The translations under genes and the position numbers were made by a program. Below the pieces are notes generated by a model. That model was not told where the DNA came from and made no database searches. It was given only the letters and a program-made list of their open reading frames with translations. From positions 10,274 to 74,273 of the forward strand of contig JBLMXY010000058.1 in assembly GCA_050257975.1 (NCBI GenBank): 64,000 nt of DNA, given 5' to 3'. Source of the DNA: Acidobacteriota bacterium. GTDB lineage: Bacteria > Acidobacteriota > Thermoanaerobaculia > UBA5066 > Gp7-AA6. Positions 10,688 to 63,716 of this stretch are shown here, piece after piece (within the stretch, counting starts at the first letter, position 1; each line of letters starts with the position of its first letter).

Positions 10688-10697
10688 TGACCGTCTC

Positions 10698-11780
10698 TCA
10701 ATGGCCCGCAGCGGGCGAGCCGGATCTCTCGAAGAGGTAGCTCTCGAGGAGCCCCGACTCGCCCGACACCAGCGTCCCTTCGTGCACGAAGGTCGGGGTC
10801 GTGGAGATCCCGAGGCGCATCGCGAGGTGAATGTCCGCCAGGACCCGGCCGCGCGCCCGCCCGCTCTGGATCTCATCCCGATAACGCGCCGCGACGCCGG
10901 ACGACTCGGCCACGTCGGCGGCGAGATCCCGGCACCCGGTCTCCGTGAGGCTTCCCGCGCGAGCGAAGACCAGGTCGCGATACTTCGCGTAGAGGCCGGC
11001 GTCGAGCGCCCCGAGCGCCGACGCCGACTCCGCCGCCGCGAACGCCCAGGGATGGTTCTTGACAAGGGGCAGGAAGCGCGCCTCGACGAAGCCGCCGCGC
11101 CGCGCGACGGCCGCCTCGACTTCGGGCGCCCGGGCCCGGCAGCGCTCGCACTGGAAGTCGAGAAACTCCGTCACCGCGAAGCCGCCCGATCCCAGGCGCA
11201 CGCCGGGCCGCTCGGAGAGAAGCCGCTGGCGGAAATCTCGGGGCCCCTCGGAAAGCGGATGAAACTCCCCGATCGCGAGGACGGAGCCGTCGCGGGACAC
11301 GAACCCCTCGCATTCGAGCACCGCGTCGGCGCGCTCGCGAATCGCGATCCGCAGGCTCTCGAGCGTCCCGCGCGACGAGCCCGTCATCGTCACGCGGACC
11401 GGCAAGCCGAAGGCCTCCGCGAGCGAGGCCTGGATGTTCGGCAGATCCGCCCGCGCGTCGAAAGGTCGCCGGGCGGCGCGGCGGGCCGGGTCTCCGAAGA
11501 CGTCGCCGACGAGGATCTCCCTGCGGACGGGATCGACCAGGACGGCGTTGGATTCCTGATGGAAGCGGGAGCCGGAGCGGCGCTCGACGCGGTACGCCTC
11601 GAAGCCGGGCTGGGCGATCTCGGGCATCTCCGAGACGGAGACGGCGCCGCCTTGAACGTAGGAGTACCACTCCTCGAAGTAGCGTCCCACCCTTTCGCGC
11701 AGGTCCGATCCGGCGCCGGCCGAGGCGCCCGCCACGGCAAGCATCAAGAGAATCAGCAGGATACGCGGCGCCCGACGCAC
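10698..11780 (-). CDS. secreted DsbA-family thioredoxin-fold protein (CxxC = CERC), paralogous in architecture to 7456..8604
   Basis: Signal peptide MRRAPRILLILLMLAVAGASAGAG. EFLDFQCERCRA. C-terminal GISTTPTFVHEG. Confidence 0.7.
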   Translation of the reverse strand: MRRAPRILLILLMLAVAGASAGAGSDLRERVGRYFEEWYSYVQGGAVSVSEMPEIAQPGFEAYRVERRSGSRFHQESNAVLVDPVRREILVGDVFGDPARRAARRPFDARADLPNIQASLAEAFGLPVRVTMTGSSRGTLESLRIAIRERADAVLECEGFVSRDGSVLAIGEFHPLSEGPRDFRQRLLSERPGVRLGSGGFAVTEFLDFQCERCRARAPEVEAAVARRGGFVEARFLPLVKNHPWAFAAAESASALGALDAGLYAKYRDLVFARAGSLTETGCRDLAADVAESSGVAARYRDEIQSGRARGRVLADIHLAMRLGISTTPTFVHEGTLVSGESGLLESYLFERSGSPAAGH

Positions 11781-11873
11781 GGCGCCAACGTTAACACGGC
11801 GTCATCCGGCGCGATTCCGCCCGGGTGCGGCCGGCCTGCGCCGCTTCGCCCCGACGGCGGTGGCGTCAGCGGG

Positions 11874-12947
11874 CTAGGCTCTCTTCGCGAGCGCCTTGGC
11901 GCGCTCGAGCGCGGAGAGAACGTCGCTCTCCCGCTGCAACACGTTCTTGCCGTATCCCTGCTTGGTGACGAACTCGAAGTCGAGCTCCTGGTTCGGAATC
12001 TCCTTGGGCAGGTTCGCGCGCAGGTAGTGCCACGCCTCGATCCAATTGGAGGACGCATCCAGGATCGAGGTTCCCGGTCCGCTCACCTGGTTCTGGCGCG
12101 CGGCGCGGTCGGTGTTCGAGCCGCCCATCTGCTCCGAGGCGCGGATCTCGGACGGCGAGTACCGAGAGAGGCCGCTGGCGTCGGCCGCATCCTCGCCGGT
12201 CTTCAAGGGACGCCGGCCGCTGTAGGTGGGCGGACCCATCAAGACGAAGACCATCCCGCGGTCGGTGAGGCTCCCCCGAACCTCGTCCTGCGCCAAACGC
12301 GCGTCGGCGAAAGCGACGCGCTTGTCGAACTCCTCTCGGAACTCGTTTTCGGGAGTGTCGGGCCGGGGGTCGCGCGCCCGCCAGAAGTTCGCGATGAGCT
12401 CGGAGCGCGAGACGGGGTTGACAGCATCCAGGTACGCCCGCCTCTCGTCGGGCGTCAGGAGCCAGCGCACGGGGCCGTCCGCCCAGTCATCGCGCGAGCT
12501 TTCGTCGGCGTGCCCCGCCGGCGGGACGAAAGCGCGGTAGGCCGTCGCGAGCGCGCCGGTCTCCTCGGGCCGATTCACGCCGGGACGATTGGCGAGACTC
12601 TTGCGCGCGGCTTCGAGCGCGGCGATCACGGACTTGGGATAGAGCGCCGGATCGATCTGAATGCCCGGCTGCAGAGTCAGGAAGGTCTCGAACTGCTCCT
12701 GCGCCTCCCCCGCTTTTCCCATCGCGGCGAGGCAAGCGCCCCGGTAGAAGAGCAGGCCGGGCAGAAGGGCCGCGCGCTGATTCTCGATGCCGGGTTTCGC
12801 GCTTTCCGCGTCGAGCTCTGCGAGCGTCGCGAGCGCGTCCCCGTAGGCGGCCAGCTTGAATTGCGACTTCGCCTTCTGGAAGAGCTCGGGAAGTGTCGCC
12901 GCCGCGAGGAACACGGACAGGAGGAGAGGCAGGAGCGAGGACACCAT
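11874..12947 (-). CDS. GWxTD-domain-like secreted protein with N-terminal TPR-like region
   Basis: ORF 11874..12992. I prefer ATG 12947 (MVSSLLPLLLSVFLAAA signal) because a terminator hairpin occupies 12985-13015. Contains RGSLTDRGMVFVLMGPP, resembling the GWxTD signature (family recalled from memory). Confidence 0.6.
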   Translation of the reverse strand: MVSSLLPLLLSVFLAAATLPELFQKAKSQFKLAAYGDALATLAELDAESAKPGIENQRAALLPGLLFYRGACLAAMGKAGEAQEQFETFLTLQPGIQIDPALYPKSVIAALEAARKSLANRPGVNRPEETGALATAYRAFVPPAGHADESSRDDWADGPVRWLLTPDERRAYLDAVNPVSRSELIANFWRARDPRPDTPENEFREEFDKRVAFADARLAQDEVRGSLTDRGMVFVLMGPPTYSGRRPLKTGEDAADASGLSRYSPSEIRASEQMGGSNTDRAARQNQVSGPGTSILDASSNWIEAWHYLRANLPKEIPNQELDFEFVTKQGYGKNVLQRESDVLSALERAKALAKRA

Positions 12948-12984
12948 GGCGACCTCCGCCGTCAATCTACGGCCGGATCCTCCG

Positions 12985-13015
12985 GAAAACAACAGGGGGG
13001 GCCACCCGCCCCCCC
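12985..13015 (-). terminator. rho-independent terminator after the TonB-dependent receptor gene
   Basis: Minus strand reads GGGGGGG-CGGGTGG-CCCCCCC followed by TGTTGTTTTCC, 29 nt after the stop at 13044. Confidence 0.7.
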
Positions 13016-13043
13016 TCTCGGAACCGATCCAACGAGTCCCCCG

Positions 13044-16000
13044 TTAGAAGGAGACTTTGAGCGCGAAGCGGAAGAGCCGGGGATCCTGGCGCGACGTGGC
13101 CAGGCCGTAGTTGGCGTTGTTCTTCTCGTTGCAGTGATTGCCGATCGGGTCGGCGTTCTGCGCCGCCGTGCAGGGAGCGAGAAACAGATTGTTGTACTGA
13201 TCCGGTGTCTTCGGGTAGTTGGCGCCCTGCGAGATCTGCCAGTTGTTGTCCACGTTCGTGATGATCTGGCGGTTGAGCAGATTGAACGCATAGGCCTGAA
13301 GCGACACGGTCGCCGGGCCGATCTGGATCGGGTACGAGAGTGAGAGATTCATCTCGTACTGCGTCGGCAGGCGTCCGGCCGAGCCGTTGGGCACGAGGCT
13401 CGTCTGCGCGATGTAGAACTGGTTGAAGTAACCGTACACCGACTGCGGCGGGCCGGACTGGACGTAGCCCTGGAACCCGATCGCGAGCTTGATCGGCGTG
13501 ATGTAGGTCGTGTCGAGGCGGAAGTTGACCGGCCGGTCGAGGTAGAGCTTGCCGTACCGGTTGCGCAGGAACGAGTTGTAGTCGAAGTCGGCCGTGATGC
13601 CAGGGTCGGTCTGCACATAGTCCTGCTTCACGCCGCCGTCGTAGTTGCCGCGCAGCGACGAGTACACGAAGGAGGCCTGGGCCCAGAACTTGTCTCCGAT
13701 GGTCTTACGCGCCACGAGCTCGATGCCCCTGTACAGGCGGCGGGCCCGCGTGATCGTGCCCTGGGGCAGCAACGCGTTGATCGGCTTGATGCCGCACTCG
13801 TAGGCGTTGCCGTCGAGTCCGTTGCACCCCGTGAAGTCGCCGGTCGCGAACTGGCCCGTGCCGCCCGGATTGGTGATCACGCAGGTGTTGCCGTTGTTCT
13901 CGGGCGCGGACGAGTCGGCGTCGCAACGATCCTCGACGGCGCGGCCGAACCGGCGGTACTCGCCCTTGATGCCGATCGAGAAGGTCGGGTCGAGCAGCGC
14001 CTCGAAACCGACGTTGAACTCGTCCTGATAGATGCCCTTCATGCCCGCGTCGTGCGGCTCGGCGAAGATGCCGCCCTGCGTGTGCGCGGTCTCGTGGCCG
14101 ATGACGTTCGGATCCTGTGCGACGTCCGCGGCGGTCGTGCCGGGGTTGAAGTTGTAGGTGGCCACGAAGAGCTGCTGGCCGTAGGAACGGACGTTCAGGT
14201 CCGTCGGCAGCGCGTAGTAGAACTTGCCGCCAAAGGCGTAGATCTTCATCGATCCGTTGTTCTTCGGGTCCCAGACGATGCCGACGCGCGGCTGCCACTC
14301 GTTTTTCAAGTCGATGACGGACTCGCCGGCGAAATTCTTGAGGTTCTCGTTGTCCCAGCGCAGTCCCGCGTTGATCGTCAGGCCCGGCAGCACCTTCCAG
14401 GAATCCTGAAGAAAGGCGCTGTAATTGATCGTGTTCGGGTTGACGACGTTGTCCACGGGCGTGAAGTCGTCGGGGCCGGCGGCCCAGAAATTGTGTGCGT
14501 AGTACGTCTGTCCGTATTCGTTGTATTGCTGGACGTACTGCTTGCCGCTGATGTTGGTGATGGCGGTCGTCTTGCCGTTCTGCCAGTCGCCCCCGATCTT
14601 CATCTCGTGGTTACCGGCATACAGTGACATATCGCCGCGTGCCTGCCAGCGCGACGAATGGTTGTTGCGGATGTACCCCGAGATCGAGCCGAAGCCGCCG
14701 GACGCGGAGTTGGGCTCGACCGGCTGATCGCAGGGATCCGTCGGCGTCCCTCCCGCGCAAGTCCAATCCTCGAAACGCACGCCGGCGCCGGCACCGGCCG
14801 GGATGGTCTCGTACTTGTCGTAGTGGCGCGAGCCCTGGAGCGAGAGCAGGCCCGTCGAGCCGAAGAGCTGGTTGAGACGCACGCCGTAGTCCGTGCCGCC
14901 GATCTTGAGGTCGGAGCCCCACGTGCTCTCATCCGGGCTCACGATCGGCACCGGATAGTAGCTGTGCGTCGGATCCGAGGCCGCGGCGCCCGTGACCTTC
15001 GACGGATCCGCAAAGACCGTGCCGACGAGCGTGGTGCCGGTCGCGAGGTTCCAGGTCAGCTTGCCGGAGTAGAGGTTGTCGGTCGAGTCCGCCGGAAACT
15101 TGTCGTTGGCGGAGACGAGCGCGCTGTCGTTGTAGCGCGAGATGTCCGTCGGCTTGGAAACGTGGTCATAGGCGAAGAAGAACCACAGCCGGTCCTTGAC
15201 GATGCGGCCGCCGAAATCGGCGCCGAAGTCCGTCCGGTTGTAGCCGTTGATCCGCATGCCCTGAAAGTAGTCTTGGGACGTGATCTTCTGGTCCGCGCGG
15301 AGGCCGAACGAGTCGTAGTAGACGAAGCCGTCGCCGTGGAACTCGTTGCCCCCCGACTTCGTGATGACGTTGATGACACCGCCGAGCGCCCGGCCGTATT
15401 CGGCCTGGTAGCCGCCGGTCTTGATCTCGACTTCCTGGATGAACTCGCCGTTGATGGCCTTTCCCTGGAAGCCGCGGATGACGTTGGTCGTGTTGACGCC
15501 GTCGATGATGAACTGGTTCTCGACGGAGGTCGAGCCGTAAACGGTGAGCGAGAGAGCCCTTCCCTGCGTATCCCCCTGGTCCTGATTGACCCCGGGGTTG
15601 GAGCGGATGATCTCGGCGTAGTTTCTCCCGAGCGGAAGCTTCTCGATGACCTTCGCGCTGTAGTTCGTCCCGCCGGTCGTGGAGGTCGTGTCCACCATCG
15701 GCGCCTCACCCGTGACGACCACGGCCTCCTTGGCCGTCATCGAGAGCTGCAGGTTCACCGTCGCCGTGGCGTCCAGCGCGACGGTGGTGTTCTTCTCGAC
15801 GCTGCCCAACCCCGCCAGAGACGCGGTGACCTTGTACGTCCCGGGCGGAAGGCTGACGAATCGATATCGGCCGTCGCTTCCCGTCACCGCGGTTCGAGTG
15901 CCTTGCAGGTTCGGGCTCGAAGCCTCAACCGTGACACCGGGAAGCGGCGCTCCGTTCTGATCCAGTACGGTGCCCTCGATCCTCCCGGTCGTCTGGGCGG

Positions 16001-38567: not shown

Positions 38568-38788
38568 GACAGAGCGATTCCTGTGCCCGCGTGCACGATC
38601 GAGAGAAGCCCTTTGAAATCAGCGGGATTCGAAACGAGGATCGGTCTCGATGCCCGGTCTGACGCCGATTTCGTTACGTTCGGTAACGCACGCAGGATCG
38701 GATTTCGCCCGGCGGCCGAAGCGTTCTGGGCAGGATCCCGCGACCGGCAGCCGCGCGCCGAGGGCGCTACACTGTTCACAACATATCC

Positions 38789-41269
38789 ATGTGGAAGGCA
38801 CGAGGGATTCTCGCGGCGGAGACGCGCGCGCTGCTCGCCCGGCTCAAGGCGCGCGGCTGGAAAGGGGAAGGCGAGCGGGAGGACCTGCTCCGCCGCCTCG
38901 CGGAGGCCAAGGACCTCGAACCCGAGGACGTCGCGTGGATGGCGACCGAGACGGACCCGGCGGTGCGGCAGGCCGGCCTCGCCCTGCTCAAGCGCTTCCC
39001 CTACGAGCGATCGGCGGCGGCTCTCTTCCCGATGCTCGCGACGCGCTCGGAGGCGCTGCTGCGCGCGGCGATGCAGGCCCTGGAAGCGCTGGCCGGAGCG
39101 TCGTTTCCGGAAAAGATGCTCGGGTACCTCGAGCACCGCGATCCCGCGGTCGTCAACGCGGCGCTCGAGTACGCGCGCAAGAACCCTTCCGACCGCTACC
39201 TGCCCGGCATCGCCAGGGCCCTGCATTCTTCCTCGGCGCCGATCCGTCGCAAGGCCTTCGGCATCGTCGAGGGCGTCGCGTCGCCGCGGGCCGCGACGCT
39301 CGCCCTGCGCACGCTCGAGGACGATGACGAGGAGCTCCGCTTTCGGGCCATCCAGGTCATCGCGAAGTTCCCCGACGAGTCGCACATCGGCCCGCTGCTC
39401 AAGCGCTGCCGCAACGACACGGCCCGTATCCAGGAGGCGGCCCTGGGCGCGCTCACCCCGCTGCTCGCGCGCGCGGACGACCGGTTCAACCGGGAGGTCC
39501 TTCCGCTGCTTTCTGACAACAATCCGAAGGTGCGGCAGCTCGCGGTCAAGATCCTCCAACGCCAGTCCCCAGAGAAAGTCGCCGAAGGCTTCCTGCATGC
39601 CTTTCAGGGCTCCTTCGGAATCGTGCGCGAGCGCGGCATCGAGGCGCTCGGAGCATTCGGCCCGGAGTTCATCCGGGCCTTCCTCGCCCACGACCGGGAC
39701 CCGGACGAGGGAATCGCCGGCCTCGCCTCGGCGATCGCGGTGACCGTGCGCTCCCCCGAGGCCATCCCGCACTGCGTCCGTTACCTGAAGGGGGAGGACT
39801 TCTGGATGCGGGACCGCGCGGCGCAGGCGCTGGCCGAGATCCGCCAGCCGGCCACTCTGCCCCACCTGGTCGCGATGCTCGAGGATCCCGAGTCGAATCT
39901 CTCCGCGGCCAACGCGCTCGGCGTGTGGGGTGCCGGAGAGGCGCTGCCGCCGCTGCTGGCCGCGTACAAGAAGGGCGGCGCCGATCTGCGGCTCGAGATC
40001 CTGGACGCCTTCGCCCGCATCGCGGACCCCCGCGTGGGCCCTCTGCTCGACTCGATCGTGAAGGCGGATCCCGACCCGATCGTCCGCTCCAAGGCGGCGC
40101 GCCTTTCCGCGGCGAAGGCCGGCGGCGCGGCGGCGCTTTCCGCCGCCCCTCCGGCGGCCAGGGAGTTCGCGCCCGTCGATTTCAAGGCCAACCCGAAGCC
40201 CTCGCTCGCCGATCTGCTGCGGCACGCCCGGGCGACCGAGGCTTCGGACCTGCATCTGGCCACGGGAACCCTGCCGCACGTGCGGATCAACGGCGTCCTG
40301 ACGCCGCTGCCGATGCCGGAGGTGACGGCGGAGCAGATGCAGGGGTGGATCACGCCGATCCTCACGCCGGACCGGCGCAAGCGCCTGGAGGCGGAGCGGC
40401 AGCTCGACTTCTGCCACAAGGATCCGGAGCTCGGGCGGTTTCGAACGAACGTCTTCTTCCAGCGCAAGGGGGCCAACGCGGTCTTCCGCGTCATTCCGCT
40501 CGAGGTGCCGACCGTCGCCGAGATCGAGCTGCCCGAGAGCCTCTGGGACCTGACCAACTACTCCCAGGGCCTCGTGCTCGTGACGGGCTCCTCGGGCTGC
40601 GGCAAGACGACCACGCTGGCGGCGCTGATCGACCGGATCAACCAGAGCCGCCCCCTGCACATCCTGACCATCGAGGACCCGATCGAGTACGTCCACCGGG
40701 GAAAGGAGGCGCTCGTCAACCAGCGGGAGGTGCCGTCGCACACCCGCTCCTTCGCCCGGGCGCTGCGGCAGGCGCTTCGCGAAGACCCCGACGTCATTCT
40801 CGTGGGAGAAATGCGGGACCTCGAGACCATCTCGCTCGCCATCACGGCCTCCGAGACAGGGCACCTCGTCTTCGCGACGCTGCACACGACGACCGCCGCC
40901 ACGACCGTGGACCGGGTCATCAACTCCTTCCCTCCGGACCAGCAGGGACAGATCCGCATGATGATCGCCGACTCCCTCAGGGCGGTCGTCTCGCAGGTCC
41001 TGCTGCCCCGACGGGACGGCTCGGGGCGCGTGGCCGCCTTCGAAATCCTGCGCAACACCGCCAACGTCGCCGGACTGATCCGCGAGGGGAAGACCTTCCA
41101 GATCCCGACGGCGATCCAGACCGGGGTCTCGGCGGGGATGATCACGATGGACGGCGCCCTGCTCCAGCTCGTCCAGAACGGCGCGATCGATCCGAGAGTC
41201 GGCTTCGACCACGCGCAGCGCAAGGAGGCCTTCGAGGCGCTGCTCGAAGACTCGGGGAGCGCCGCGTGA
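38789..41269 (+). CDS. PilT-family hexameric ATPase fused to a ~475-aa N-terminal HEAT/armadillo-like repeat domain
   Basis: The C-terminal ~345 aa carries all PilT boxes: Walker A GSSGCGKTT, Asp box ILTIEDPIEYVH, Walker B DPDVILVGEMRD, His box TGHLVFATLHTT, and LIREGKTFQI. The N-terminus has recurrent HEAT-like units (DPAVRQAGLALL, SAPIRRKAFGIV, DEELRFRAIQVI, NPKVRQLAVKIL, DFWMRDRAAQALAEI, DPIVRSKAARL). Confidence 0.85.
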   Translation: MWKARGILAAETRALLARLKARGWKGEGEREDLLRRLAEAKDLEPEDVAWMATETDPAVRQAGLALLKRFPYERSAAALFPMLATRSEALLRAAMQALEALAGASFPEKMLGYLEHRDPAVVNAALEYARKNPSDRYLPGIARALHSSSAPIRRKAFGIVEGVASPRAATLALRTLEDDDEELRFRAIQVIAKFPDESHIGPLLKRCRNDTARIQEAALGALTPLLARADDRFNREVLPLLSDNNPKVRQLAVKILQRQSPEKVAEGFLHAFQGSFGIVRERGIEALGAFGPEFIRAFLAHDRDPDEGIAGLASAIAVTVRSPEAIPHCVRYLKGEDFWMRDRAAQALAEIRQPATLPHLVAMLEDPESNLSAANALGVWGAGEALPPLLAAYKKGGADLRLEILDAFARIADPRVGPLLDSIVKADPDPIVRSKAARLSAAKAGGAAALSAAPPAAREFAPVDFKANPKPSLADLLRHARATEASDLHLATGTLPHVRINGVLTPLPMPEVTAEQMQGWITPILTPDRRKRLEAERQLDFCHKDPELGRFRTNVFFQRKGANAVFRVIPLEVPTVAEIELPESLWDLTNYSQGLVLVTGSSGCGKTTTLAALIDRINQSRPLHILTIEDPIEYVHRGKEALVNQREVPSHTRSFARALRQALREDPDVILVGEMRDLETISLAITASETGHLVFATLHTTTAATTVDRVINSFPPDQQGQIRMMIADSLRAVVSQVLLPRRDGSGRVAAFEILRNTANVAGLIREGKTFQIPTAIQTGVSAGMITMDGALLQLVQNGAIDPRVGFDHAQRKEAFEALLEDSGSAA

Positions 41270-49300: not shown

Positions 49301-49807
49301 CTACGGCGCCACCTTCCCCGCTCGCACCTTCTCGTAGATTTCCTGGCTGTCGGTCCTGCCTTGCGCGACGGCGCAGGTGCCGTCGCAGCGGGCGGTGACC
49401 TCGCCCGCGCCGTCCGTGATCTCGGCCGCGGCGAAGATCAGGTTCATTCCGGGGCGCACGAGGCGAGCCTCGGCCGCGACACGGGAGCCCCGGGTGGGGC
49501 GAAAGAAGGTCATCGCCAGATTGACCGTGGCCGACCGCGTTTCGGGGCGAGTCAACCAGCCGACCGTGCCGATCACCAGATCGAAGAGGCCCGCCAGCAC
49601 GACCCCGTTGACCGCGTCGGTCCCCATGCCGCCTCGATGAAACGGCAGCACCGGGTCGATCACGGCGCGCACGCGGTCGATCCGAGTGAACTCGAGGCGC
49701 GCTCCGAGGTGCTTCATCGGGGGGCCGGCGTTCCAGATGTCGGCCAGCCTGCCAAGCGCCTCGAGCGTCCCGTAGGCCGGGGAGAAGGGCTTGCCCTCGA
49801 GGCTCAT
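49301..49807 (-). CDS. PaaI/hotdog-fold thioesterase
   Basis: 168 aa. PFHRGGMGTDAVNGVVLAGLFDLVIG and AEARLVRPGMNLIFAAAEITDGAGEVTA are typical of the 4HBT/PaaI family. Confidence 0.75.
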   Translation of the reverse strand: MSLEGKPFSPAYGTLEALGRLADIWNAGPPMKHLGARLEFTRIDRVRAVIDPVLPFHRGGMGTDAVNGVVLAGLFDLVIGTVGWLTRPETRSATVNLAMTFFRPTRGSRVAAEARLVRPGMNLIFAAAEITDGAGEVTARCDGTCAVAQGRTDSQEIYEKVRAGKVAP

Positions 49808-49879: not shown

Positions 49880-50320
49880 ATGCGCGCCTCAAACGACGAC
49901 GATAAGGAGTCTCTCGTGGCAAGACGCAGAAGGACGGCCCTTCCCAAGATCACGGCGGAGCAGGCGCAGCAGGCGCTTCACATCATGGTGCAGGACGGCC
50001 GCATCGCCGTCCGCGACGTTTCCAAGGCGCTCGCGCGGCGGGAGAAGCTCGTCCGAGAGCTGCGAAGCCGCCTCTCGGCCCTCGGCGACGACGTCGCGGG
50101 AGCCGTCAATCGCGCAGTTCCAGGGAAGACCCGCAGGGCGCTCCGCCGCGGCGCGCGCAAGGCGATCACGGAGGCGCAGCGCACGGCGCGCCGGGCTCAG
50201 GGCCAGTACCTGGCTGCGATCCGCAGGCTCTCCAAGGCCTCTCGCGCGAAGGTCCGGGAGGTCCGCAAGAGCTCGGGCGTCAAGGCCGCGATCGCCGCCG
50301 CCAAGAAGCTCGCCTCTTAG
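49880..50320 (+). CDS. small basic hypothetical protein (Lys/Arg/Ala-rich C-terminus, possibly nucleic-acid binding)
   Basis: ORF 49238..50320 trimmed to ATG 49880 (MRASNDDDKESLVARRRRTALPKITAEQAQQALHIMVQDGRIAV...KSSGVKAAIAAAKKLAS). Confidence 0.5.
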   Translation: MRASNDDDKESLVARRRRTALPKITAEQAQQALHIMVQDGRIAVRDVSKALARREKLVRELRSRLSALGDDVAGAVNRAVPGKTRRALRRGARKAITEAQRTARRAQGQYLAAIRRLSKASRAKVREVRKSSGVKAAIAAAKKLAS

Positions 50321-50541: not shown

Positions 50542-51432
50542 ATGCCTTCCAAAGACCTCAGAGTGCCTGTTGCCAACGATCCGCCGCTCTCGCACGGACA
50601 GCGTCTGCGCGAAGAGGTCGAGCGTCGTCAGACGCTGCCCTTCATCGGGGTCTACGACGCCTATTCCGCGTCTCTCGCGGCGCGGCAGTTCAACGCGCTG
50701 TTCTTGAGCGGCTTCAGCTTTTCGGCCAGCTACTACGGGCTGCCCGACGAGGGGTACATCGCGTGGCCGGACGTGGCGCAGTGCGCCCAGCGGATCCGGG
50801 CGGTCTTGCCCGAAGCGCACCTGCTCGTTGACATGGATGACGGATACGGAGACGCCGGAGTGGCGGCGCACGCCGCGGCAACGCTCGAGGCCGCCGGGGC
50901 CTCGGGCGTCGTCTTCGAGGACCAGCTTCGGCCCAAGAAGTGCGGCCACCTGGATGGAAAGCAGGTCGTCGAGCTCGAGACCTACCTCGACAAGCTCGAT
51001 CGGGTGCTTTCCGCCCGGAGCGACTTGTTCGTCGTCGCGCGAACGGACGCCACCGCTCCGGAGGAGCGGCTTCGGCGCTCCGCGGCGTTCGACCGCGCGG
51101 GCGCGGACGCGATTCTCGTCGACGGAATCGAAGACCTCGCCTTCCTCCGCGAGCTGCGGAGCCGGGTGAAAGCGCCGGTCGCCTTCAACCAGATTGCCGG
51201 CGGAAAGTCTCCGTCCCGCAGCTGGACCGAGCTGCGCGAGGCCGGGGTCTCCATCGTCATCTACAGCACCCCGTGCCTCTTCGCCGCTCATCAGGCAATC
51301 GATCAGGCGCTCGGCGACCTGGGGCGCGAGGACGGCCGCCTCCAGGACCCCGTGCCTCCGCGGGTGGGCCTCTCGGCCGCGAACGATCATCTCCACGCAA
51401 ACCTCGCCGGGCGATCCCGGGGACGGTCGTAG
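50542..51432 (+). CDS. isocitrate lyase / PEP mutase superfamily enzyme (lyase-type KKCGH motif)
   Basis: ORF 50410..51432 trimmed to ATG 50542. Motifs FIGVYDAYSA, DMDDGYGD, VVFEDQLRPKKCGHLDGKQVV, VVARTDA, ADAILVDG. Confidence 0.85.
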   Translation: MPSKDLRVPVANDPPLSHGQRLREEVERRQTLPFIGVYDAYSASLAARQFNALFLSGFSFSASYYGLPDEGYIAWPDVAQCAQRIRAVLPEAHLLVDMDDGYGDAGVAAHAAATLEAAGASGVVFEDQLRPKKCGHLDGKQVVELETYLDKLDRVLSARSDLFVVARTDATAPEERLRRSAAFDRAGADAILVDGIEDLAFLRELRSRVKAPVAFNQIAGGKSPSRSWTELREAGVSIVIYSTPCLFAAHQAIDQALGDLGREDGRLQDPVPPRVGLSAANDHLHANLAGRSRGRS

Positions 51433-51455
51433 CGCGGGCCGCATTTCATCGCTCC

Positions 51456-52982
51456 ATGTTTCTCGCGCCGAGCCCGGGTCCTCTGTCGGAACCGCTCACC
51501 GGGCGCCGCTGGGATCCGGCGCAGATCGAGAGCCAGGTTGCGCGGCGGGCCGCCGCGTTTCGCGCGCGCGGGGTCGCTCCCGGGGAGCGGGTCTTTCTGG
51601 GCTTCGGCAACCGGCTCGAGTTCTTCGGAGACCTGCTCGCGATCTGGCGCATCGGGGCATGCGCGGTCCCGCTCGATGCGCGGCTGACGCCGTTCGAGAT
51701 CGAGACGCTGGCTCAGGCGGCCAGACCAGGAGCGTACGTCGCTCCCGGCGAACTCGACGCGCGGCTCGCCGCGGCCCTTCGCGGCCTCGGCGCCGTGCTG
51801 TTCGACTCTCTCGAAGTCGGAGATCTCTCGAGTTCCGAGCCGGGCGCCGCTGGCGCGTTTTCCCTGGAAGACGACGCGCTCATCCTTTTCACGTCGGGAA
51901 CCACGGGGAACCCCAAGGGGGTGGTCCACACCCACCGCACGTTGCGGGCCCGCTGGGTCACCCTGCGGCAGAGCCTCGGGCTCGAGAAGCACCGGCGGTC
52001 GCTCTGCCTGCTTCCGACCCACTTCGGCCACGGACTCATCTGTAACTCCCTCTTCCCCTGGCTTTCGGGCCAGGAGCTGTTCATCCTTCCTCCCTTCTCC
52101 TCCGAGGTCGTCATGCACCTGGGCGAGATCGTCGACGAGAACGGCATCACCTTTCTTTCCTCGGTCCCCTCGGTCTGGCGGCTTGCGCTCAAGCTCGCGC
52201 GGCCGCCTCGCGCGGGGTCGCTCGAGCGCGTGTTCGTGGGCTCCGCGCCGCTTTCCGCCCACCTCTGGCGGCAGATCCAGGAGTGGTCCGGCACCCGCGA
52301 GGTCTGCAACGCCTACGGCATCACGGAGACTGGAAGCTGGACGGCCGGAACGACGATTCCGGACTTCGAGCCGGAGGACGGACTGATCGGCGTTCCCTGG
52401 GGCGCGGTCGTGGCCGTCACCAGGGGCGGCGCCGTCGAGGAGCCGCCCGGGATCGGGGCTCCGGCCGGGCCGGGTGACACGGGATTCGTCTGGCTCAACA
52501 CGCCGGCTCTCATGAAGGGCTACCTCGGCCGGGACGACCTGACCGCCCGAAGCGTGCGCGCCGGATGGTTCCTCACCGGGGACCTCGGCTACCTCGACGC
52601 CCGCGGTCACCTGTACCTGCGAGGCCGCGTGCGGGACGAGATCAACAAGGGAGGCGCCAAGATCTATCCTGCCGACATCGAGTCGGTCGCCGAACGGTTC
52701 GCCGGTGTGGCCGACTGCTGCTGCTTTCCCATCGAGGATCCCCTCTACGGACAGAACGTGGCCCTCGCCCTCGTGATGCCCGGACAAACGCCCGCCAGCA
52801 TCCGGGGCCTACACGCCTGGCTCAAGAGGCACCTGGCCGAGCACCAGATGCCGGTGCGCTGGTACCGGTTGGACGAGCTGCCGCGAACCTCGCGGGGCAA
52901 GATCAATCGGGACCAGATCGCCGCCGCCTGCCAGGGCCTCTCGCCGCTGGATCTGCGAGCGATTCTGGCCGCGGCTCCATGA
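51456..52982 (+). CDS. adenylate-forming enzyme (AMP-dependent synthetase/ligase, DltA-like position)
   Basis: ORF 50940..52982 trimmed to ATG 51456. Motifs ILFTSGTTGNPKGVVHTH, NAYGITETG, GDLGYLDARGHLYLRGRVRDEINKGGAKIYPADIE, PRTSRGKINR. Confidence 0.88.
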   Translation: MFLAPSPGPLSEPLTGRRWDPAQIESQVARRAAAFRARGVAPGERVFLGFGNRLEFFGDLLAIWRIGACAVPLDARLTPFEIETLAQAARPGAYVAPGELDARLAAALRGLGAVLFDSLEVGDLSSSEPGAAGAFSLEDDALILFTSGTTGNPKGVVHTHRTLRARWVTLRQSLGLEKHRRSLCLLPTHFGHGLICNSLFPWLSGQELFILPPFSSEVVMHLGEIVDENGITFLSSVPSVWRLALKLARPPRAGSLERVFVGSAPLSAHLWRQIQEWSGTREVCNAYGITETGSWTAGTTIPDFEPEDGLIGVPWGAVVAVTRGGAVEEPPGIGAPAGPGDTGFVWLNTPALMKGYLGRDDLTARSVRAGWFLTGDLGYLDARGHLYLRGRVRDEINKGGAKIYPADIESVAERFAGVADCCCFPIEDPLYGQNVALALVMPGQTPASIRGLHAWLKRHLAEHQMPVRWYRLDELPRTSRGKINRDQIAAACQGLSPLDLRAILAAAP

Positions 52983-53233
52983 GCCGCGCCGGCAACCGGG
53001 AGCGCCTGCTCCGTTTTCTGGACGGCATCCGCCGGCCGGACCGGCGGCTTTCGGAGATCGAAGAGGGTGAGAACCTCGTGCAATCGGGCCTGATCGATTC
53101 GCTCGCCCTGCTCGAGATCGTCTCGTTTCTCGAATCGGAGTTCGGCGTCGATTTCTCCTCCACTGGCCTCGATCCCGGACGCCTGACGACGATCCCCAGC
53201 ATCCTCGACCTGATCGAAACCGAGACGGGATGA
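52979..53233 (+). CDS. acyl/aminoacyl carrier protein (phosphopantetheine site in LIDSLALLE; DltC-like position)
   Basis: Last 84 codons of ORF 52565..53233 from ATG 52979 (ATGA overlap with the ligase stop): ...NLVQSGLIDSLALLEIVSFLESEFGVDF... Confidence 0.8.
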   Translation: MSRAGNRERLLRFLDGIRRPDRRLSEIEEGENLVQSGLIDSLALLEIVSFLESEFGVDFSSTGLDPGRLTTIPSILDLIETETG

Positions 53234-54696
53234 CGGCGCCGACGGGGCTTCGCCGAATCCTCTCGTGGCACGAAGACCCCTGGCTCCAGGCACGGGCCGC
53301 GACGACTCTCGGCCGTTTCACCGTGTGGTGCGCGGCGGCGGGACTCCTGCCGGACAAATGGCGGCTCCCCGTCCTGCCGTTTCTGGCGCTCGCTCAGTTC
53401 TTCCCGGGCAGGCGCATCGAACTCCTGGCGATCGGATCGCTCTGGGTTCTCTTCGACCGCCTCCCATTATCGGTTCGGGCGCTCGGGCCGGTCCGGGCGC
53501 TGCCGGGAATGCTCCTCGTCCTGGCGGTCCCGGCGACGGTGTTCCTCGCCGCCCGAAGTTTCGGCAGGCTGCCGCCCTGGGTTCGGCGGTATCCCGACGT
53601 GATCCTGCATGTCCTGCTCTGGGGGGGCGCCGGACTGGCGTACGCGCTTCCGGCGGCCGTTGCCCTCCGCCCGGGCTCGCTCCCATGGGTCCTCGTTCGG
53701 AGCCTGCAACGGCTGCTCCCCTTCCTCGTCTGGCGATGCGGCTATGTGATGCTCTCCGGAAAGCGGGGCACGGCGCAGAAGAGCCGATTCCGCGATCACC
53801 TCTTCTACTGCCTTCCTCTCTGGGGCGGGACCCTGACTCCCTTCGGGAAGGGATACGACTATCTCCGGCAAAACCGCGCGGAGGCTCGCGATCAGATCGC
53901 GGCGGCGCAACTGTCCGGGGTCAAGCTCCTCGCGCTGTCCTGGATCTGGACCGGAGCGGGCATGCTGCTTGCCGCGGCGGTCTTCGGGAAGCCGGCCGGC
54001 CCGTTGAGCGCCCTTCTGGGCGAGCGGCATCTTGCGGTGCCGCGCCTCGCCGAGGCGATCGCCGCGGGAGGCGCGCTGCCACTGACCCTGACGACGCGCT
54101 GGGCCGCCGTCGTCTGCGAGCTGCTCTTCCGGACCGCGGAGCTGGCGGCGTCGGGGCACGTCATCATCGGGATCCTGCGTCTCTTCGGATTCCGCGTCTT
54201 CCGCAACACCTACAAGCCCCTGCTCGCGGCCTCGCTCGTAGACTTCTGGAATCGCTTCTACTATTACTTCAAGGAGCTCCTGGTCGAGTTCTTCTTCTTC
54301 CCTGTCTACGTCAGCTCATTCAAGCGCCATCCGCGTCTGCGCATCTTCGCCGCCACGATGGCGGCCGCGGCATTCGGCAACCTCTACTTTCACCTCCTGC
54401 GGGACTTCGGGCAGATGCTCCTCGTGCCTCGCGAGGTCGCCGCCTCGCGCGTGGGAAGCCGTCTCTTCTACTCGGTTCTTCTCGGCGTCGGCATCTTCGT
54501 CTCGATGCTGCGCGAACGCCGGAGGCGGGGAGGCGCGGCGCGGCCGCGCGGCGTGTGGCCGGCGCTCGGACGCATCCGCGCGATCGCGGGAGTCTGGCTC
54601 TTCTATTCCTTGATCCGCGTCTGGAGCGTCGAGCCGGTCTCGCTCGGCTTCTGGCAGCGAAGCCGCTTCTTCCTGTCGCTCTGGGGGCTGACGTGA
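53230..54696 (+). CDS. polytopic MBOAT-like membrane protein (DltB/AlgI-like position), with the canonical His replaced
   Basis: 488 aa with many hydrophobic segments. The segment GHVIIGILRLFGFRVFRNTYKPLLAASLVDFWNRFYYYFKELLVEFFFFPVY parallels the MBOAT core (...G..lpeNF..P..a.s..eFWrRWH.sL..w.rdY.Y.P), but RWH reads RFY. ATGA overlap with the carrier-protein stop. Confidence 0.65.
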   Translation: MTAPTGLRRILSWHEDPWLQARAATTLGRFTVWCAAAGLLPDKWRLPVLPFLALAQFFPGRRIELLAIGSLWVLFDRLPLSVRALGPVRALPGMLLVLAVPATVFLAARSFGRLPPWVRRYPDVILHVLLWGGAGLAYALPAAVALRPGSLPWVLVRSLQRLLPFLVWRCGYVMLSGKRGTAQKSRFRDHLFYCLPLWGGTLTPFGKGYDYLRQNRAEARDQIAAAQLSGVKLLALSWIWTGAGMLLAAAVFGKPAGPLSALLGERHLAVPRLAEAIAAGGALPLTLTTRWAAVVCELLFRTAELAASGHVIIGILRLFGFRVFRNTYKPLLAASLVDFWNRFYYYFKELLVEFFFFPVYVSSFKRHPRLRIFAATMAAAAFGNLYFHLLRDFGQMLLVPREVAASRVGSRLFYSVLLGVGIFVSMLRERRRRGGAARPRGVWPALGRIRAIAGVWLFYSLIRVWSVEPVSLGFWQRSRFFLSLWGLT

Positions 54697-57401: not shown

Positions 57402-57646
57402 CGTCGTTCGCGGCGCGACGAAGTTTCGCGAAGTAACCGAGCGAGACGACTCGCGCCGCGGGAGCCGGAGCGCGGCGAGAAGATCAGGGCCGCGGTCGAG
57501 TCCGCATCCGGACGAGCCGTGGCCCGGCGCCCGAAGGGCGGATCTTCGAGCGAGCGAAGGCGACGGTAGACTTCCCCCATTCCGCCCGCGCCGAGTGGCG
57601 AGAGGATTTCGTAGGGCCCAAGGCGGCTGCCCGCGGGGAGAGCCAT
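57398..57646 (-). other. upstream ORF made of a relic kinase N-terminus (28 codons incl. [10 protein letters not shown]) read into the conserved element; its stop overlaps the STK1 start (ATGA)
   Basis: Track ORF 57398..57646: [28 protein letters not shown]|RLRSLEDPPFGRR... The first 28 aa parallel the STK1 N-terminus [28 protein letters not shown]. The remainder has no kinase similarity. Confidence 0.6.
57402..57567 (-). ncRNA. conserved hairpin-rich non-coding element, copy A (candidate structured leader RNA or miniature inverted-repeat element)
   Basis: 166 nt, differing at 5 positions from copy B (63332..63497) by manual alignment. The substitutions are non-synonymous in both open frames. 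The ends are complementary (CGTCG-CC-TTCGC ... GCGAA-CGACG). Internal hairpins include CGCCC-TTC-GGGCG and GTCCG-GATG-CGGAC. Confidence 0.55.
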
Positions 57647-57669
57647 CGGATTTGGCCAATTGTATGGGC

Positions 57670-63331: not shown

Positions 63332-63576
63332 CGTCGTTCGCGGCGCGACGAAGCTTCGCGAAGTAACCGAGCGAAACGACTCGCGCCGCGGGAGCCGGAG
63401 CGCGGCGAGAAGATCAGGGCCGCGGCCGAGTCCGCATCCGGACGAGCCGCGGCCCGGCGCCCGAAGGGCGGATCTTCGAGCGAACGAAGGCGACGGTAGA
63501 CTTCTCCCATCCCCCCGGCGCCGAGCGGCGCCAGGAGCTCGTAGGGACGGGGCCGGCTCCCGGCGGCTGATGTCAT
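63328..63576 (-). other. upstream ORF with relic kinase N-terminus preceding STK2; stop overlaps the STK2 start (ATGA)
   Basis: Track ORF 63328..63576: [28 protein letters not shown]|RLRSLEDPPFGRR... Same architecture as 57398..57646. Confidence 0.6.
63332..63497 (-). ncRNA. conserved hairpin-rich non-coding element, copy B
   Basis: 161 of 166 positions identical to copy A, at the same position relative to the kinase start and exactly 5930 nt away. Confidence 0.55.
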
Positions 63577-63716
63577 GGAAGTTGCTCAATTCTATGGGCA
63601 AAGGGGAAGCGAACCACGACAGCTGTTTCTCCCCGAAGGGACCGCGATTCCCGGCCGGAGCGCTGCCGAGAGCTAAACTCCTATTCAGGTCTGGTCTCTC
63701 AGACTACAATAGTCAT

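What the first reader, a model, noticed from the sequence alone, without database searches (positions are those of the whole stretch)
50542..54696. Dlt-like cassette (adenylating enzyme + carrier protein + MBOAT-like membrane protein) in a diderm, coupled to an ICL/PEPM-family lyase and lacking DltD
Four tightly linked plus-strand genes; the last three overlap by ATGA. The trio ligase / small carrier protein with a Ser in LIDSLALLE / polytopic MBOAT-like protein mirrors DltA-DltC-DltB, the D-alanylation machinery of Gram-positive teichoic acids (established for Firmicutes). Here it sits in an organism with LptD and TonB-dependent receptors, with no DltD-like gene in the window. It is preceded by an isocitrate-lyase/PEP-mutase superfamily enzyme carrying the lyase-type KKCGH motif. 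That enzyme could supply an unusual 2-oxo/hydroxy-acid substrate. Together this suggests carrier-protein-dependent esterification of an envelope polymer with a non-standard acyl or aminoacyl group.
Basis: partly seen in the sequence, partly recalled or inferred. Interest (0 to 1): 0.7.

Follow-up and report, generated by a model that had tools for sequence, protein, structure and literature searches.

The report
Unannotated Dlt-like acyl-transfer cassette in diderms
Four linked genes in an Acidobacteriota genome encode an acid-activating enzyme, a small carrier protein, a previously unrecognised DltB-like membrane acyltransferase and an accessory lyase. The cassette is conserved in hundreds of Gram-negative lineages and probably decorates the cell envelope with a small organic acid that is still unidentified.

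Summary
Four plus-strand genes sit at 50542-54696, and the last three are joined by ATGA overlaps. G1 is a lyase-type ICL/PEP-mutase enzyme (KKCGH motif). G2 is an AMP-forming ligase. G3 is an 84-aa carrier protein with an invariant Asp-Ser. G4 is a 488-aa polytopic protein.

G4 hits no Pfam model, including the MBOAT models, and no PDB sequence. Its AlphaFold model (pLDDT 91.9) nevertheless matches DltB best, then HHAT, PORCN and DGAT1, so it has the MBOAT fold.

The G4 family is large: 1149 clusters at 50% identity and 308 species genomes. All 79 loci fetched come from diderm lineages, and every member that carries a source name is called "hypothetical".

In 48 loci with full flanks, a carrier gene is adjacent in 44 and a ligase in 42. 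The G1-type lyase is present in 13, in three different gene orders. An LtaS/OpgB- or CptA-like membrane phosphotransferase is present in 20, though not in this window.

The ligase is of the acyl-CoA-synthetase type, not DltA-like, so D-alanine is unlikely. No DltD, DltX or FxYxxF shuttle motif is conserved nearby. DltB His289 is replaced by Tyr inside an invariant YYYY motif.

Verdict: a new variant of carrier-dependent MBOAT envelope acylation. The acyl group and the acceptor are both unknown.

The parts
50542..51432 (+). G1: lyase-type member of the isocitrate-lyase/PEP-mutase superfamily (296 aa). It is an accessory component, probably making or processing the acid that is loaded on the carrier.
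   Evidence: Pfam PEP_mutase E 3.9e-35. NCBIfam PrpB scores 171 bits against a cutoff of 354, so G1 is not PrpB. The best PDB matches are petal death protein, methylisocitrate lyases, dimethylmalate lyase and oxaloacetate acetylhydrolase. The EDQ...KKCGH loop and the metal-binding Asp residues are invariant in 15 orthologues. G1 is linked to the cassette in three gene orders and to a second ligase/carrier/C-domain context.
51456..52982 (+). G2: AMP-forming (ANL) ligase of 508 aa. It is inferred to adenylate a small carboxylic acid and load it on G3.
   Evidence: AMP-binding E 1.2e-57 plus AMP-binding_C. All NCBIfam hits are below their cutoffs. The best PDB hits are oxalate-CoA ligase (155 bits), feruloyl-CoA synthetase, FadD13 and malonyl-CoA synthetase. 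No DltA structure is among the 60 best. The pocket motifs THFGHG, GSAPL, YGITETGSW and W315 are invariant in 46 family members.
52979..53233 (+). G3: free-standing 84-aa carrier protein. Ser41 in GLIDSLA is the presumed phosphopantetheine attachment site.
   Evidence: PP-binding scores 21.5 bits against a 20.8-bit cutoff. D40-S41 is invariant in 16 homologues. A family profile hits type II PCPs at E 2.6e-10, DltC (1dv5) at 8e-6 and the DltC chain of the DltB-DltC complex (6bug_A) at 3e-4. The start overlaps the G2 stop by ATGA.
53230..54696 (+). G4: 488-aa polytopic MBOAT-fold protein from an unannotated family. It is the inferred acyltransferase that takes the acyl group from G3.
   Evidence: No Pfam hit and no PDB sequence hit. 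The AF2 model has pLDDT 91.9. The top Foldseek hits are DltB 8jem/6bug (E 4e-7 to 1e-6, target-normalised TM 0.62-0.67), followed by HHAT, PORCN, DGAT1, MBOAT7 and ACAT. hhalign against DltB gives E 2.4e-4 and aligns FRNTYKPL..FWNRYYYY with INFDKPF..FWNRWH289. H388 and four other His residues are invariant.

Best explanation
The cassette is a carrier-protein-dependent membrane acyl-transfer system. It is built like DltA-DltC-DltB but is chemically and evolutionarily distinct from it.

Proposed mechanism, with the basis of each step:
1. G2 adenylates a small, probably polar, carboxylic acid that is not D-alanine. It then thioesterifies the acid to the phosphopantetheine arm of G3. This is inferred from domain content, pocket motifs and translational coupling.
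2. Acyl-G3 docks on the cytoplasmic face of G4, an MBOAT-fold protein closest in structure to DltB. The fold is shown. The docking is inferred by analogy with the DltB-DltC complex.
3. G4 passes the acyl group through the membrane using the invariant His388. I take His388 to be the equivalent of the catalytic DltB His336. The acyl group ends up on an extracytoplasmic or membrane-embedded acceptor (inferred).
4. No DltX, DltD or SGNH partner and no C-terminal FxYxxF shuttle is conserved with G4. Transfer is therefore probably direct, as in eukaryotic MBOATs. Alternatively it may run through the invariant Tyr cluster (Y344-Y346) that replaces DltB His289. The Tyr-relay idea is speculative.
5. 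G1, a lyase-type ICL/PEPM enzyme, is an accessory that makes or trims the acid. This rests on linkage in two independent ligase/carrier contexts.
6. In other genomes the cassette is often followed by an LtaS/OpgB-like glycerophosphotransferase or flanked by a CptA-like phosphoethanolamine transferase. The most likely acceptor is therefore a phospho-alcohol-decorated envelope glycan or lipid, such as LPS core, periplasmic glucan or a glycolipid. This is the weakest step, and this window contains no such gene.
For: Gene structure and coupling.

Domains.

G4 fold: a high-confidence model. All 19 best Foldseek hits are MBOATs, led by DltB. The shared motif N-x-x-K-P-x8-F-W-N-R aligns without gaps to DltB. 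Dozens of family members give independent weak tblastn hits to this same DltB segment.

Family size and host range: 403 or more hits, all unnamed or called 'hypothetical'. There are 1149 50%-identity clusters and 308 GTDB species genomes. The 79 fetched loci are all from diderm lineages.

Synteny in 48 loci with full flanks: carrier in 44, G2-type ligase in 34, another AMP-ligase in 8, G1-type lyase in 13, sulfatase-family membrane transferase in 20.

Gene-order permutations that keep the set together.

Carrier type.

Ligase: the pocket is invariant across phyla and has no amino-binding Asp.

G1 seen from its own side: among 80 metagenomic loci, 39 show cassette genes and about 20 show an A-T didomain and/or a stand-alone condensation domain next to the G1-like gene.

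Neighbour identities: CptA at 825-878 bits against a cutoff of 404. The LtaS-like neighbour's best PDB matches are VP1736 and the LTA primase. ArnT-like, BacA and DedA genes also occur.

Canonical MBOAT-SGNH mechanism and the FxYxxF motif used for comparison: PMC12148441.
Against: No biochemical data exist for any member of the family.

G4 fails every sequence model for MBOATs.

The equivalence of His388 with DltB His336 is not shown by any alignment. hhalign places them about 10 residues apart. It rests on helix order, a similar spacing from the FWNR motif (48 versus 51 residues) and invariance. The DltB control model I made was poor, with pLDDT 49.

The second MBOAT signature residue (DltB His289) is Tyr.

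The acceptor is inferred only from neighbours that are absent from this 64-kb window. Those neighbours are present in fewer than half of the loci.

G1 is present in only about a quarter of the loci.

Four of the 48 full loci have an orphan G4 with no ligase or carrier nearby.
Confidence: 0.6

Rival explanations
1. Lipid or lipoprotein remodelling. G2 acts as a fatty-acyl-AMP/ACP ligase, and G4 works like DGAT, ACAT or LPLAT-type MBOATs. It would acylate a membrane lipid, a lyso-lipid, lipid A or a lipoprotein with a fatty acid inside the bilayer, rather than decorating a polymer with a small acid.
For: The highest NCBIfam scores for G2 are long-chain fatty-acid-CoA ligase subfamilies, at 251 and 223 bits, though below their cutoffs. 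Lipid-acylating MBOATs (DGAT1, MBOAT7, ACAT, LPCAT3) are among the fold matches. No SGNH or DltX partner is conserved, as is the case for lipid MBOATs. Lipid-A-modifying neighbours (CptA-like, ArnT-like, BacA, DedA) occur in some loci.
Against: The pocket positions of G2 are polar and carry two invariant Trp residues (H189, H192, S263, S294, W295, W315). This argues for a small substrate. The carrier is PCP/DltC-like rather than FAS-ACP-like. A C-C lyase of the ICL/PEPM family makes short acids, not fatty acids. DltB, not the lipid MBOATs, is the best structural match.
Confidence: 0.15
2. Small-molecule (secondary-metabolite-like) pathway. G1, G2 and G3 build a carrier-tethered acid. G4 then esterifies a diffusible metabolite, or couples acyl transfer to export, with no role in envelope structure.
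For: G1-like lyases also sit next to an A-T didomain plus a stand-alone NRPS condensation domain. In two of those loci an oxalyl-CoA-decarboxylase/HACL-like ThDP enzyme is present as well. That is a typical small-molecule assembly set. A hotdog (4HBT) thioesterase lies just upstream of the cassette in the window.
Against: The cassette is spread across many phyla as a compact 3-4 gene unit with no further tailoring or export genes. Its recurrent neighbours are envelope-modifying enzymes. All characterised bacterial MBOATs act on envelope or secreted polymers (PMC12148441).
Confidence: 0.12
3. A genuine but highly diverged Dlt system that D-alanylates an envelope component of diderms, like the dlt/dra loci reported in some Gram-negative bacteria.
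For: The architecture is ligase-carrier-MBOAT. DltB is the best fold match. DltC is among the carrier matches. An LtaS-like gene lies downstream in 13 or more loci.
Against: G2 has the acyl-CoA-synthetase A4 motif THFGHG with no Asp for an alpha-amino group. No DltA structure is among its 60 best PDB matches. G4 scores 16 bits against the DltB model, whose cutoff is 375. G3 scores 17.8 bits against the DltC model, whose cutoff is 68. No DltD or DltX is present.
Confidence: 0.03

Closest known systems
DltABCD/DltX teichoic-acid D-alanylation system of Firmicutes (DltB structures 6BUG, 8JEM)
   Same: Both have an adenylating enzyme, a small free-standing carrier protein with a Ser-phosphopantetheine site, and an MBOAT-fold membrane protein encoded together. 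DltB is the best structural match of G4. The motif NxxKPx8FWNR is shared. An LtaS-type gene is adjacent in a subset of loci.
   Different: The ligase belongs to the acyl-CoA-synthetase class and lacks the D-Ala pocket. No DltD and no DltX/FxYxxF shuttle are conserved. DltB His289 is replaced by Tyr in an invariant YYYY motif. G4 is undetectable with DltB or MBOAT HMMs. The hosts are diderms. A lyase-type ICL/PEPM enzyme is an optional partner.
Bacterial MBOAT-SGNH O-acetyltransferase pairs (PatA/PatB, AlgI/AlgJ/AlgX, WssH) as described in PMC12148441
   Same: An MBOAT membrane protein moves an acyl group from the cytoplasm to an extracytoplasmic envelope polymer in Gram-negative bacteria.
   Different: Those systems use acyl-CoA and have no carrier protein. 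Their MBOAT carries two extra TM helices ending in an FxYxxF acyl-shuttle motif, and they need an SGNH partner. G4 ends in a conserved but Tyr-free FF(L)(S/G/A)LFG(L/I) motif. It has no conserved SGNH neighbour.
Vibrio cholerae AlmEFG lipid A glycine modification (PMC4278540)
   Same: A diderm system in which a DltA-like ligase (AlmE) and a DltC-like carrier (AlmF) feed an envelope acylation reaction.
   Different: From my own knowledge, the transferase AlmG is a lysophospholipid-acyltransferase-type enzyme, not an MBOAT, and AlmE activates an amino acid. Here the transferase is MBOAT-fold and the ligase pocket is not of the amino-acid type.
Eukaryotic protein/lipid MBOATs (HHAT, PORCN, DGAT1)
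   Same: They share the fold. They act without an SGNH partner or shuttle peptide and transfer directly to the acceptor. This is the mode I infer for G4.
   Different: They use acyl-CoA donors. There is no carrier protein or dedicated ligase, and they come from a different kingdom.

Membership tests
MBOAT superfamily | Match to the Pfam MBOAT (PF03062) or MBOAT_2 (PF13813) models | tested here: not met
   G4 has no Pfam hit at E<=0.01. Ten diverged family members have none at E<=1. The precomputed Pfam field is '-' for all 120 listed homologues.
MBOAT superfamily | MBOAT fold: a ring of TM helices around a central funnel/tunnel core | tested here: met
   The AF2 model has pLDDT 91.9 and pTM 0.89. 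Foldseek ranks 1-19 against the PDB are all MBOATs: DltB at E 3.8e-7 and TMt 0.62-0.67, then HHAT, PORCN, DGAT1, MBOAT7, ACAT1/2 and LPCAT3. Non-MBOAT hits have TM<0.2.
MBOAT superfamily | Invariant catalytic His in a TM helix (DltB His336, in GFWHG) | tested here: inconclusive
   G4 His388 (GNLYxH) is invariant in 35 sequences. It lies 48 residues after the Trp of the FWNR motif, compared with 51 in DltB. It sits at the C-terminal end of the corresponding helix. However, hhalign does not align the two residues, and no coordinates were available for superposition.
MBOAT superfamily | Second conserved polar residue about 40-50 positions upstream (Asn, Asp or His; DltB His289 in FWNRWH) | tested here: not met
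   The gapless motif alignment puts G4 Tyr344 at this position. The Tyr is conserved in at least 90% of sequences, within the Y344-Y345-Y346 run.
Dlt D-alanylation system | DltA: a D-alanine-specific adenylation enzyme | tested here: not met
   The A4 motif is THFGHG, invariant in 46 sequences, with no Asp. The best hits are acyl-, oxalyl- and malonyl-CoA ligases. No DltA model is among the 25 best NCBIfam families and no DltA structure is among the 60 best PDB matches.
Dlt D-alanylation system | DltC: a small carrier protein with a Ser-Ppant site | tested here: inconclusive
   D40-S41 is invariant. A family profile hits DltC 1dv5 at E 8e-6 and 6bug_A at 3e-4, but type II PCPs score better. 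The NCBIfam DltC model gives 17.8 bits against a cutoff of 68. G3 is a carrier protein, but not a DltC equivalog.
Dlt D-alanylation system | DltB equivalog | tested here: not met
   TIGR04091 scores 16.4 bits against a cutoff of 375, covering residues 311-367 only. The relationship is fold-level only.
Dlt D-alanylation system | DltX microprotein with a C-terminal FxYxxF shuttle, and a DltD (SGNH-like) transferase | tested here: not met
   A motif scan of all small ORFs within 5 kb of G4 in 80 loci found 2 unrelated chance hits. Neighbour clustering found no other conserved real gene. The recurrent small-ORF clusters I inspected are shadow ORFs, and the remaining clusters are the envelope-enzyme and locus-specific genes already named. 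A DltD HMM was not run on the whole window.
Bacterial MBOAT-SGNH acetyltransferases (PatA/AlgI type) | C-terminal FxYxxF motif fused to the MBOAT on two extra helices, plus an SGNH partner | tested here: not met
   The G4 C-terminus has the consensus RFFLSLFGL and no Tyr. There is no SGNH-like conserved neighbour. The motif definition is from PMC12148441.
ICL/PEP-mutase superfamily, lyase branch | PEP_mutase-type TIM barrel with Mg-binding Asp residues and a K(K/R)CGH gating loop | tested here: met
   PF13714 at E 3.9e-35. D97/D99, E126-D127-Q128 and C134-G135-H136 are invariant in 15 orthologues.
Methylisocitrate lyase PrpB | Score above the equivalog cutoff | tested here: not met
   TIGR02317 scores 171.6 bits against a cutoff of 354. 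NF008455 scores 154.7 bits against 353.
Oxalyl-CoA synthetase (AAE3 type) | Oxalate-specific pocket residues Ser289 and His319 (PMC8905533) | tested here: not met
   In the HMMER alignment to 5IE0, Ser289 corresponds to G2 Ser263, which is conserved. His319 corresponds to G2 Ser294, which is invariant in the family. One of the two markers is met.

The most novel reading that the evidence does not exclude
The cassette defines a widespread, so far unrecognised envelope-decoration pathway of Gram-negative bacteria. In this reading a self-sufficient MBOAT takes a small organic acid from a dedicated carrier protein. The acid is made or trimmed by a C-C lyase. The MBOAT needs no DltX, DltD or SGNH helper and may use its own invariant Tyr cluster as the acyl relay. 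It esterifies glycerophosphate- or phosphoethanolamine-bearing envelope glycans or lipids. That would be teichoic-acid-like chemistry in diderms.
Probability: 0.25. Interest if true: 0.85.

Novelty: new variant of a known kind. Interest (0 to 1): 0.62.

Why it matters
Carrier-protein-fed MBOAT acylation is so far a Gram-positive paradigm, exemplified by Dlt, which is a target for anti-virulence drugs. This work points to a sequence-invisible MBOAT family of at least 1100 clusters and 308 species genomes. It has its own ligase and carrier and occurs in Acidobacteriota, Binatia, Magnetococcales, Accumulibacter, Verrucomicrobiota, Nitrospirota and others.

If the family is an envelope acylation system, it adds a new chemical modification to diderm envelopes. 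It also offers a natural test of whether bacterial MBOATs can work without the Tyr-shuttle/SGNH relay. In addition, it gives a function to a large block of 'hypothetical proteins'.

The finding is directly testable with three soluble proteins and one membrane protein.

Tried and rejected
1. Sequence-level links of G4 to known families failed. Pfam, PDB phmmer and hmmsearch with the full protein, a family profile or the motif-rich segment gave nothing.

2. I first read the FWNRFY motif as loss of the catalytic His. Numbering DltB from the 6BUG alignment corrected this: the FWNRWH His is His289, and the catalytic His336 lies in GFWHG.

3. My search for DltB homologues returned only close streptococcal sequences. 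The resulting DltB profile and AF2 control model were weak, with hhalign probability 43% and pLDDT 49.

4. The oxalate hypothesis had three points in its favour. G1 resembles oxaloacetate acetylhydrolase and petal death protein. The top PDB hit of G2 is oxalate-CoA ligase. An Oxc-like ThDP enzyme occurs in the alternative G1 context. The hypothesis is only half supported, because one of the two AAE3 marker residues is absent. I could not map the OAH marker Ser, because no OAH or DMML alignment could be displayed.

5. The recurrent small 'conserved ORF' clusters near G4 that I inspected are shadow ORFs of real genes.

6. The DltX-motif scan was negative.

7. There are no homologues on PLSDB plasmids.

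8. The promoter/terminator scan was uninformative.

9. Literature searches found no description of this cassette.


Full report
**Observation**

The window has about 70% G+C. It comes from an Acidobacteriota MAG: G4 is 100% identical to NCBI MGE5276404.1.

Four plus-strand genes occupy 50542-54696:
- G1, 50542-51432, 296 aa
- G2, 51456-52982, 508 aa
- G3, 52979-53233, 84 aa
- G4, 53230-54696, 488 aa

The G2/G3 and G3/G4 junctions are ATGA overlaps. G1 and G2 are 23 bp apart. An independent gene call on a public contig gives the same four genes. The next gene downstream is convergent, and about 220 bp of non-coding DNA precede G1. The four genes therefore look like one operon.

A TonB-dependent-receptor-like outer-membrane protein and a TonB_C protein in the window confirm a diderm host. 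I did not find LptD among the 20 ORFs scanned.

**What the four proteins are**

G1 is a PEP_mutase-family TIM barrel (E 3.9e-35). It carries the lyase-type EDQxxPKKCGH loop. It scores far below the PrpB, CPEP-mutase and PEP-mutase equivalog cutoffs. Its best solved relatives are the petal death protein, methylisocitrate lyases, 2,3-dimethylmalate lyase and oxaloacetate acetylhydrolase.

G2 is an ANL ligase, with AMP-binding and AMP-binding_C domains. All named NCBIfam families score below their cutoffs. Its best solved relatives are oxalate-CoA ligase (155 bits), feruloyl-CoA synthetase, FadD13 and malonyl-CoA synthetase. No DltA structure is among the 60 best matches.

G3 barely passes PP-binding. 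Its family has an invariant Asp40-Ser41. A family profile matches free-standing peptidyl/aminoacyl carrier proteins and DltC better than fatty-acid ACPs.

G4 has no Pfam hit. Its only hit is a marginal 16-bit match to the NCBIfam DltB model, whose cutoff is 375.

**Is G4 an MBOAT?**

At the sequence level the answer is no. No Pfam model matches G4 or ten diverged relatives. No PDB sequence matches the protein, its profile or its most conserved segment.

At the structural level the answer is yes. An AlphaFold2 model built from 35 homologues has pLDDT 91.9 and pTM 0.89. Its 19 best Foldseek matches in the PDB are all MBOATs. DltB leads (8jem and 6bug: E 4e-7 to 1e-6, TM 0.62-0.67 normalised to DltB). 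HHAT, PORCN, DGAT1, MBOAT7, ACAT and LPCAT3 follow. Unrelated transporters score TM<0.2.

Profile-sequence comparison with DltB is weak (E 2.4e-4 to 5.6e-4, probability 30-43%). It does align the invariant FRNTYKPLLAxSxVEFWNRYYYY segment, without gaps, to DltB INFDKPFISRDMKEFWNRWH. Dozens of family members independently give weak tblastn hits to this same DltB segment.

Numbering DltB from the 6BUG alignment shows that the FWNRWH His is His289, and that the catalytic His336 lies in GFWHG. G4 therefore has Tyr344 in place of His289, inside a near-invariant Tyr344-346 run.

The invariant His388 (GNLYxH) is the probable counterpart of His336. The arguments are a similar distance from the FWNR motif, the same position at the end of the corresponding helix, and invariance. 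This last equivalence is inferred. hhalign does not reproduce it, and I had no coordinates to superpose.

**Family and synteny**

The G4 family is large and unannotated. There are 403 or more hits, all without a name or called 'hypothetical', and none with a Pfam domain. There are 1149 clusters at 50% identity with E<=1e-3 and 308 GTDB species genomes.

The 79 fetched loci come from Acidobacteriota, Binatia, Magnetococcales, Gemmatimonadota, Verrucomicrobiota, Nitrospirales, Methylomirabilota, Rokubacteria, Spirochaetota, Myxococcota, Desulfobacterota and many Alpha-, Beta- and Gammaproteobacteria, including Accumulibacter and Propionivibrio. None is a monoderm.

In the 48 loci with at least 3 kb of flank on both sides:
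- A G3-like carrier is adjacent in 44.
- A G2-type ligase (at least 45% identity) is adjacent in 34.
- A different AMP-ligase is adjacent in 8. This is the pattern seen in the Magnetococcales loci.
- A G1-type lyase is present in 13.

Gene order varies while the set stays together: lyase-ligase-carrier-MBOAT, ligase-carrier-MBOAT-lyase, MBOAT-ligase-carrier-lyase and carrier-MBOAT-ligase. That is the signature of a functional unit. No other conserved real gene, and no DltX-like microprotein with an FxYxxF end, accompanies the cassette.

**The ligase is not DltA**

Across 46 G2-type ligases from many phyla, the positions that line the acyl pocket in AAE3 are invariant. These are T188-H189-F190-G191-H192-G193, G262-S263, Y287-G288-I289-T-E-T-G-S294-W295 and W315.

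There is no Asp at the A4 position that binds the alpha-amino group in amino-acid-activating enzymes. The two Trp residues and the several polar side chains suggest a small polar acid.

Of the two residues said to be specific for oxalyl-CoA synthetases (Ser289 and His319; PMC8905533), the Ser is present and the His is Ser294. Oxalate is therefore not established. The invariance of the pocket, with or without G1 in the locus, suggests that all G2-type cassettes move the same acid.

**The lyase is a real but optional partner**

G1 orthologues (52-59% identity across phyla) form a tight subfamily. They have their own motifs, FNQIAGGKSP and IYSTPCLF, and an intact catalytic loop.

I also searched from the G1 side, looking at 80 metagenomic loci:
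- 39 show cassette genes next to the lyase, even though many of the contigs are short.
- About 20 show a second context. This has an AMP-binding+PP-binding didomain, the lyase and a stand-alone condensation domain. In L098 and L104 an oxalyl-CoA-decarboxylase/2-hydroxyacyl-CoA-lyase-like ThDP enzyme is also present.

The lyase is therefore tied to 'adenylate, carrier, acyl transfer' modules with two unrelated transferases. Which acid it is remains open.

**Clues to the acceptor**

In 20 of the 48 full loci (27 of all 79), a membrane-anchored alkaline-phosphatase-superfamily transferase is adjacent. There are two types.

The first is a protein of about 670 aa directly downstream of G4 on the same strand, seen in 13 or more loci. 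Its best matches are phosphoglycerol transferase I, LtaS, the LTA primase and VP1736.

The second is a CptA-type phosphoethanolamine transferase, scoring 825-878 bits against a cutoff of 404.

A Binatia/Deltaproteobacteria group also has ArnT-like, BacA and DedA genes nearby. These are envelope-modification enzymes.

The LtaS-type neighbour recalls the LtaS/Dlt pairing of Firmicutes. It suggests that the ester is placed on a glycerophosphate- or ethanolamine-phosphate-bearing glycan or lipid. This is inference from context. The window itself has no sulfatase-family ORF.

**Mechanism proposed**

G2 activates a small carboxylic acid and loads it on G3. Acyl-G3 docks on G4. G4 uses His388 to move the acyl group across or into the inner membrane.

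Characterised bacterial MBOATs hand the acyl group to a Tyr in an FxYxxF shuttle, either on DltX or fused to the MBOAT, and then to an SGNH/DltD transferase (PMC12148441). G4 has neither. Its conserved C-terminus, FFLSLFGL, lacks Tyr. G4 therefore either transfers directly, as eukaryotic MBOATs do, or uses the Tyr344-346 cluster next to the active site. The second option is speculative.

I put about 0.6 on the general mechanism. My confidence in the identity of the acid and of the acceptor is much lower.

**Comparison and novelty**

The system works like Dlt but is not a member of it. DltA, DltB, DltD and DltX all fail their membership tests, and DltC is inconclusive. It differs from the PatA/AlgI-type MBOAT-SGNH pairs in having a carrier rather than a CoA donor, and in having no shuttle and no SGNH partner. 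It differs from Vibrio AlmEFG in the class of transferase. I found no paper describing it.

I rate it a new variant of a known kind. It is interesting mainly for three reasons. It exposes a large, sequence-invisible MBOAT family. It is a candidate for a new envelope modification in diderms. And it is readily testable.

Noticed in passing
window 57402-57660 (-) and 63332-63590 (-): About 190 nt directly upstream of the start codons of the two paralogous Ser/Thr-kinase/TolB-propeller genes (starts at 57401 and 63331) are nearly identical. Over the 260 nt compared, identity is 88%. The first 900 nt of the coding regions are only 75% identical. The conserved segment is preceded by a duplicated copy of the kinase N-terminus ([27 protein letters not shown]). 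There is no Rfam match. It could be a conserved leader, an inserted element or a gene-conversion tract.
   Followed up: partly
L098 5055-11147; also L104, L091, L115, L116, L118, L119: G1-like lyases (51-62% identical) recur in a second operon type. It has an AMP-binding+PP-binding didomain, the lyase and a stand-alone NRPS condensation domain. In L098 and L104 there is also an oxalyl-CoA-decarboxylase/2-hydroxyacyl-CoA-lyase-like ThDP enzyme. This looks like an uncharacterised small assembly line.
   Followed up: partly
window 49304-49807 (-) and 49880-50317 (+): A hotdog (4HBT) thioesterase and a 146-aa ORF with no Pfam hit lie directly upstream of the cassette. A thioesterase could edit the carrier protein, but I did not see it conserved in other loci.
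   Followed up: partly
L023 about 9100-14650: Three DltB-like segments occur in tandem (tblastn hits at 9107, 10505 and 11942). They suggest up to three tandem G4 paralogues, followed by the LtaS-like gene.
   Followed up: no
L074/L054, L060/L047, L065/L076: Some MAGs carry two G4 paralogues. One has a ligase and carrier. The other is an orphan, in one case (L054) with an LtaS-like gene. This hints that one ligase/carrier pair may serve two MBOATs.
   Followed up: no
window 29783-36033 (-) and 38687-41266 (+): A 1964-aa PilY1-domain protein and a PilX-like protein lie near a T2SSE-type ATPase that is fused to HEAT repeats. Together they form a type IV pilus-related region.
   Followed up: no
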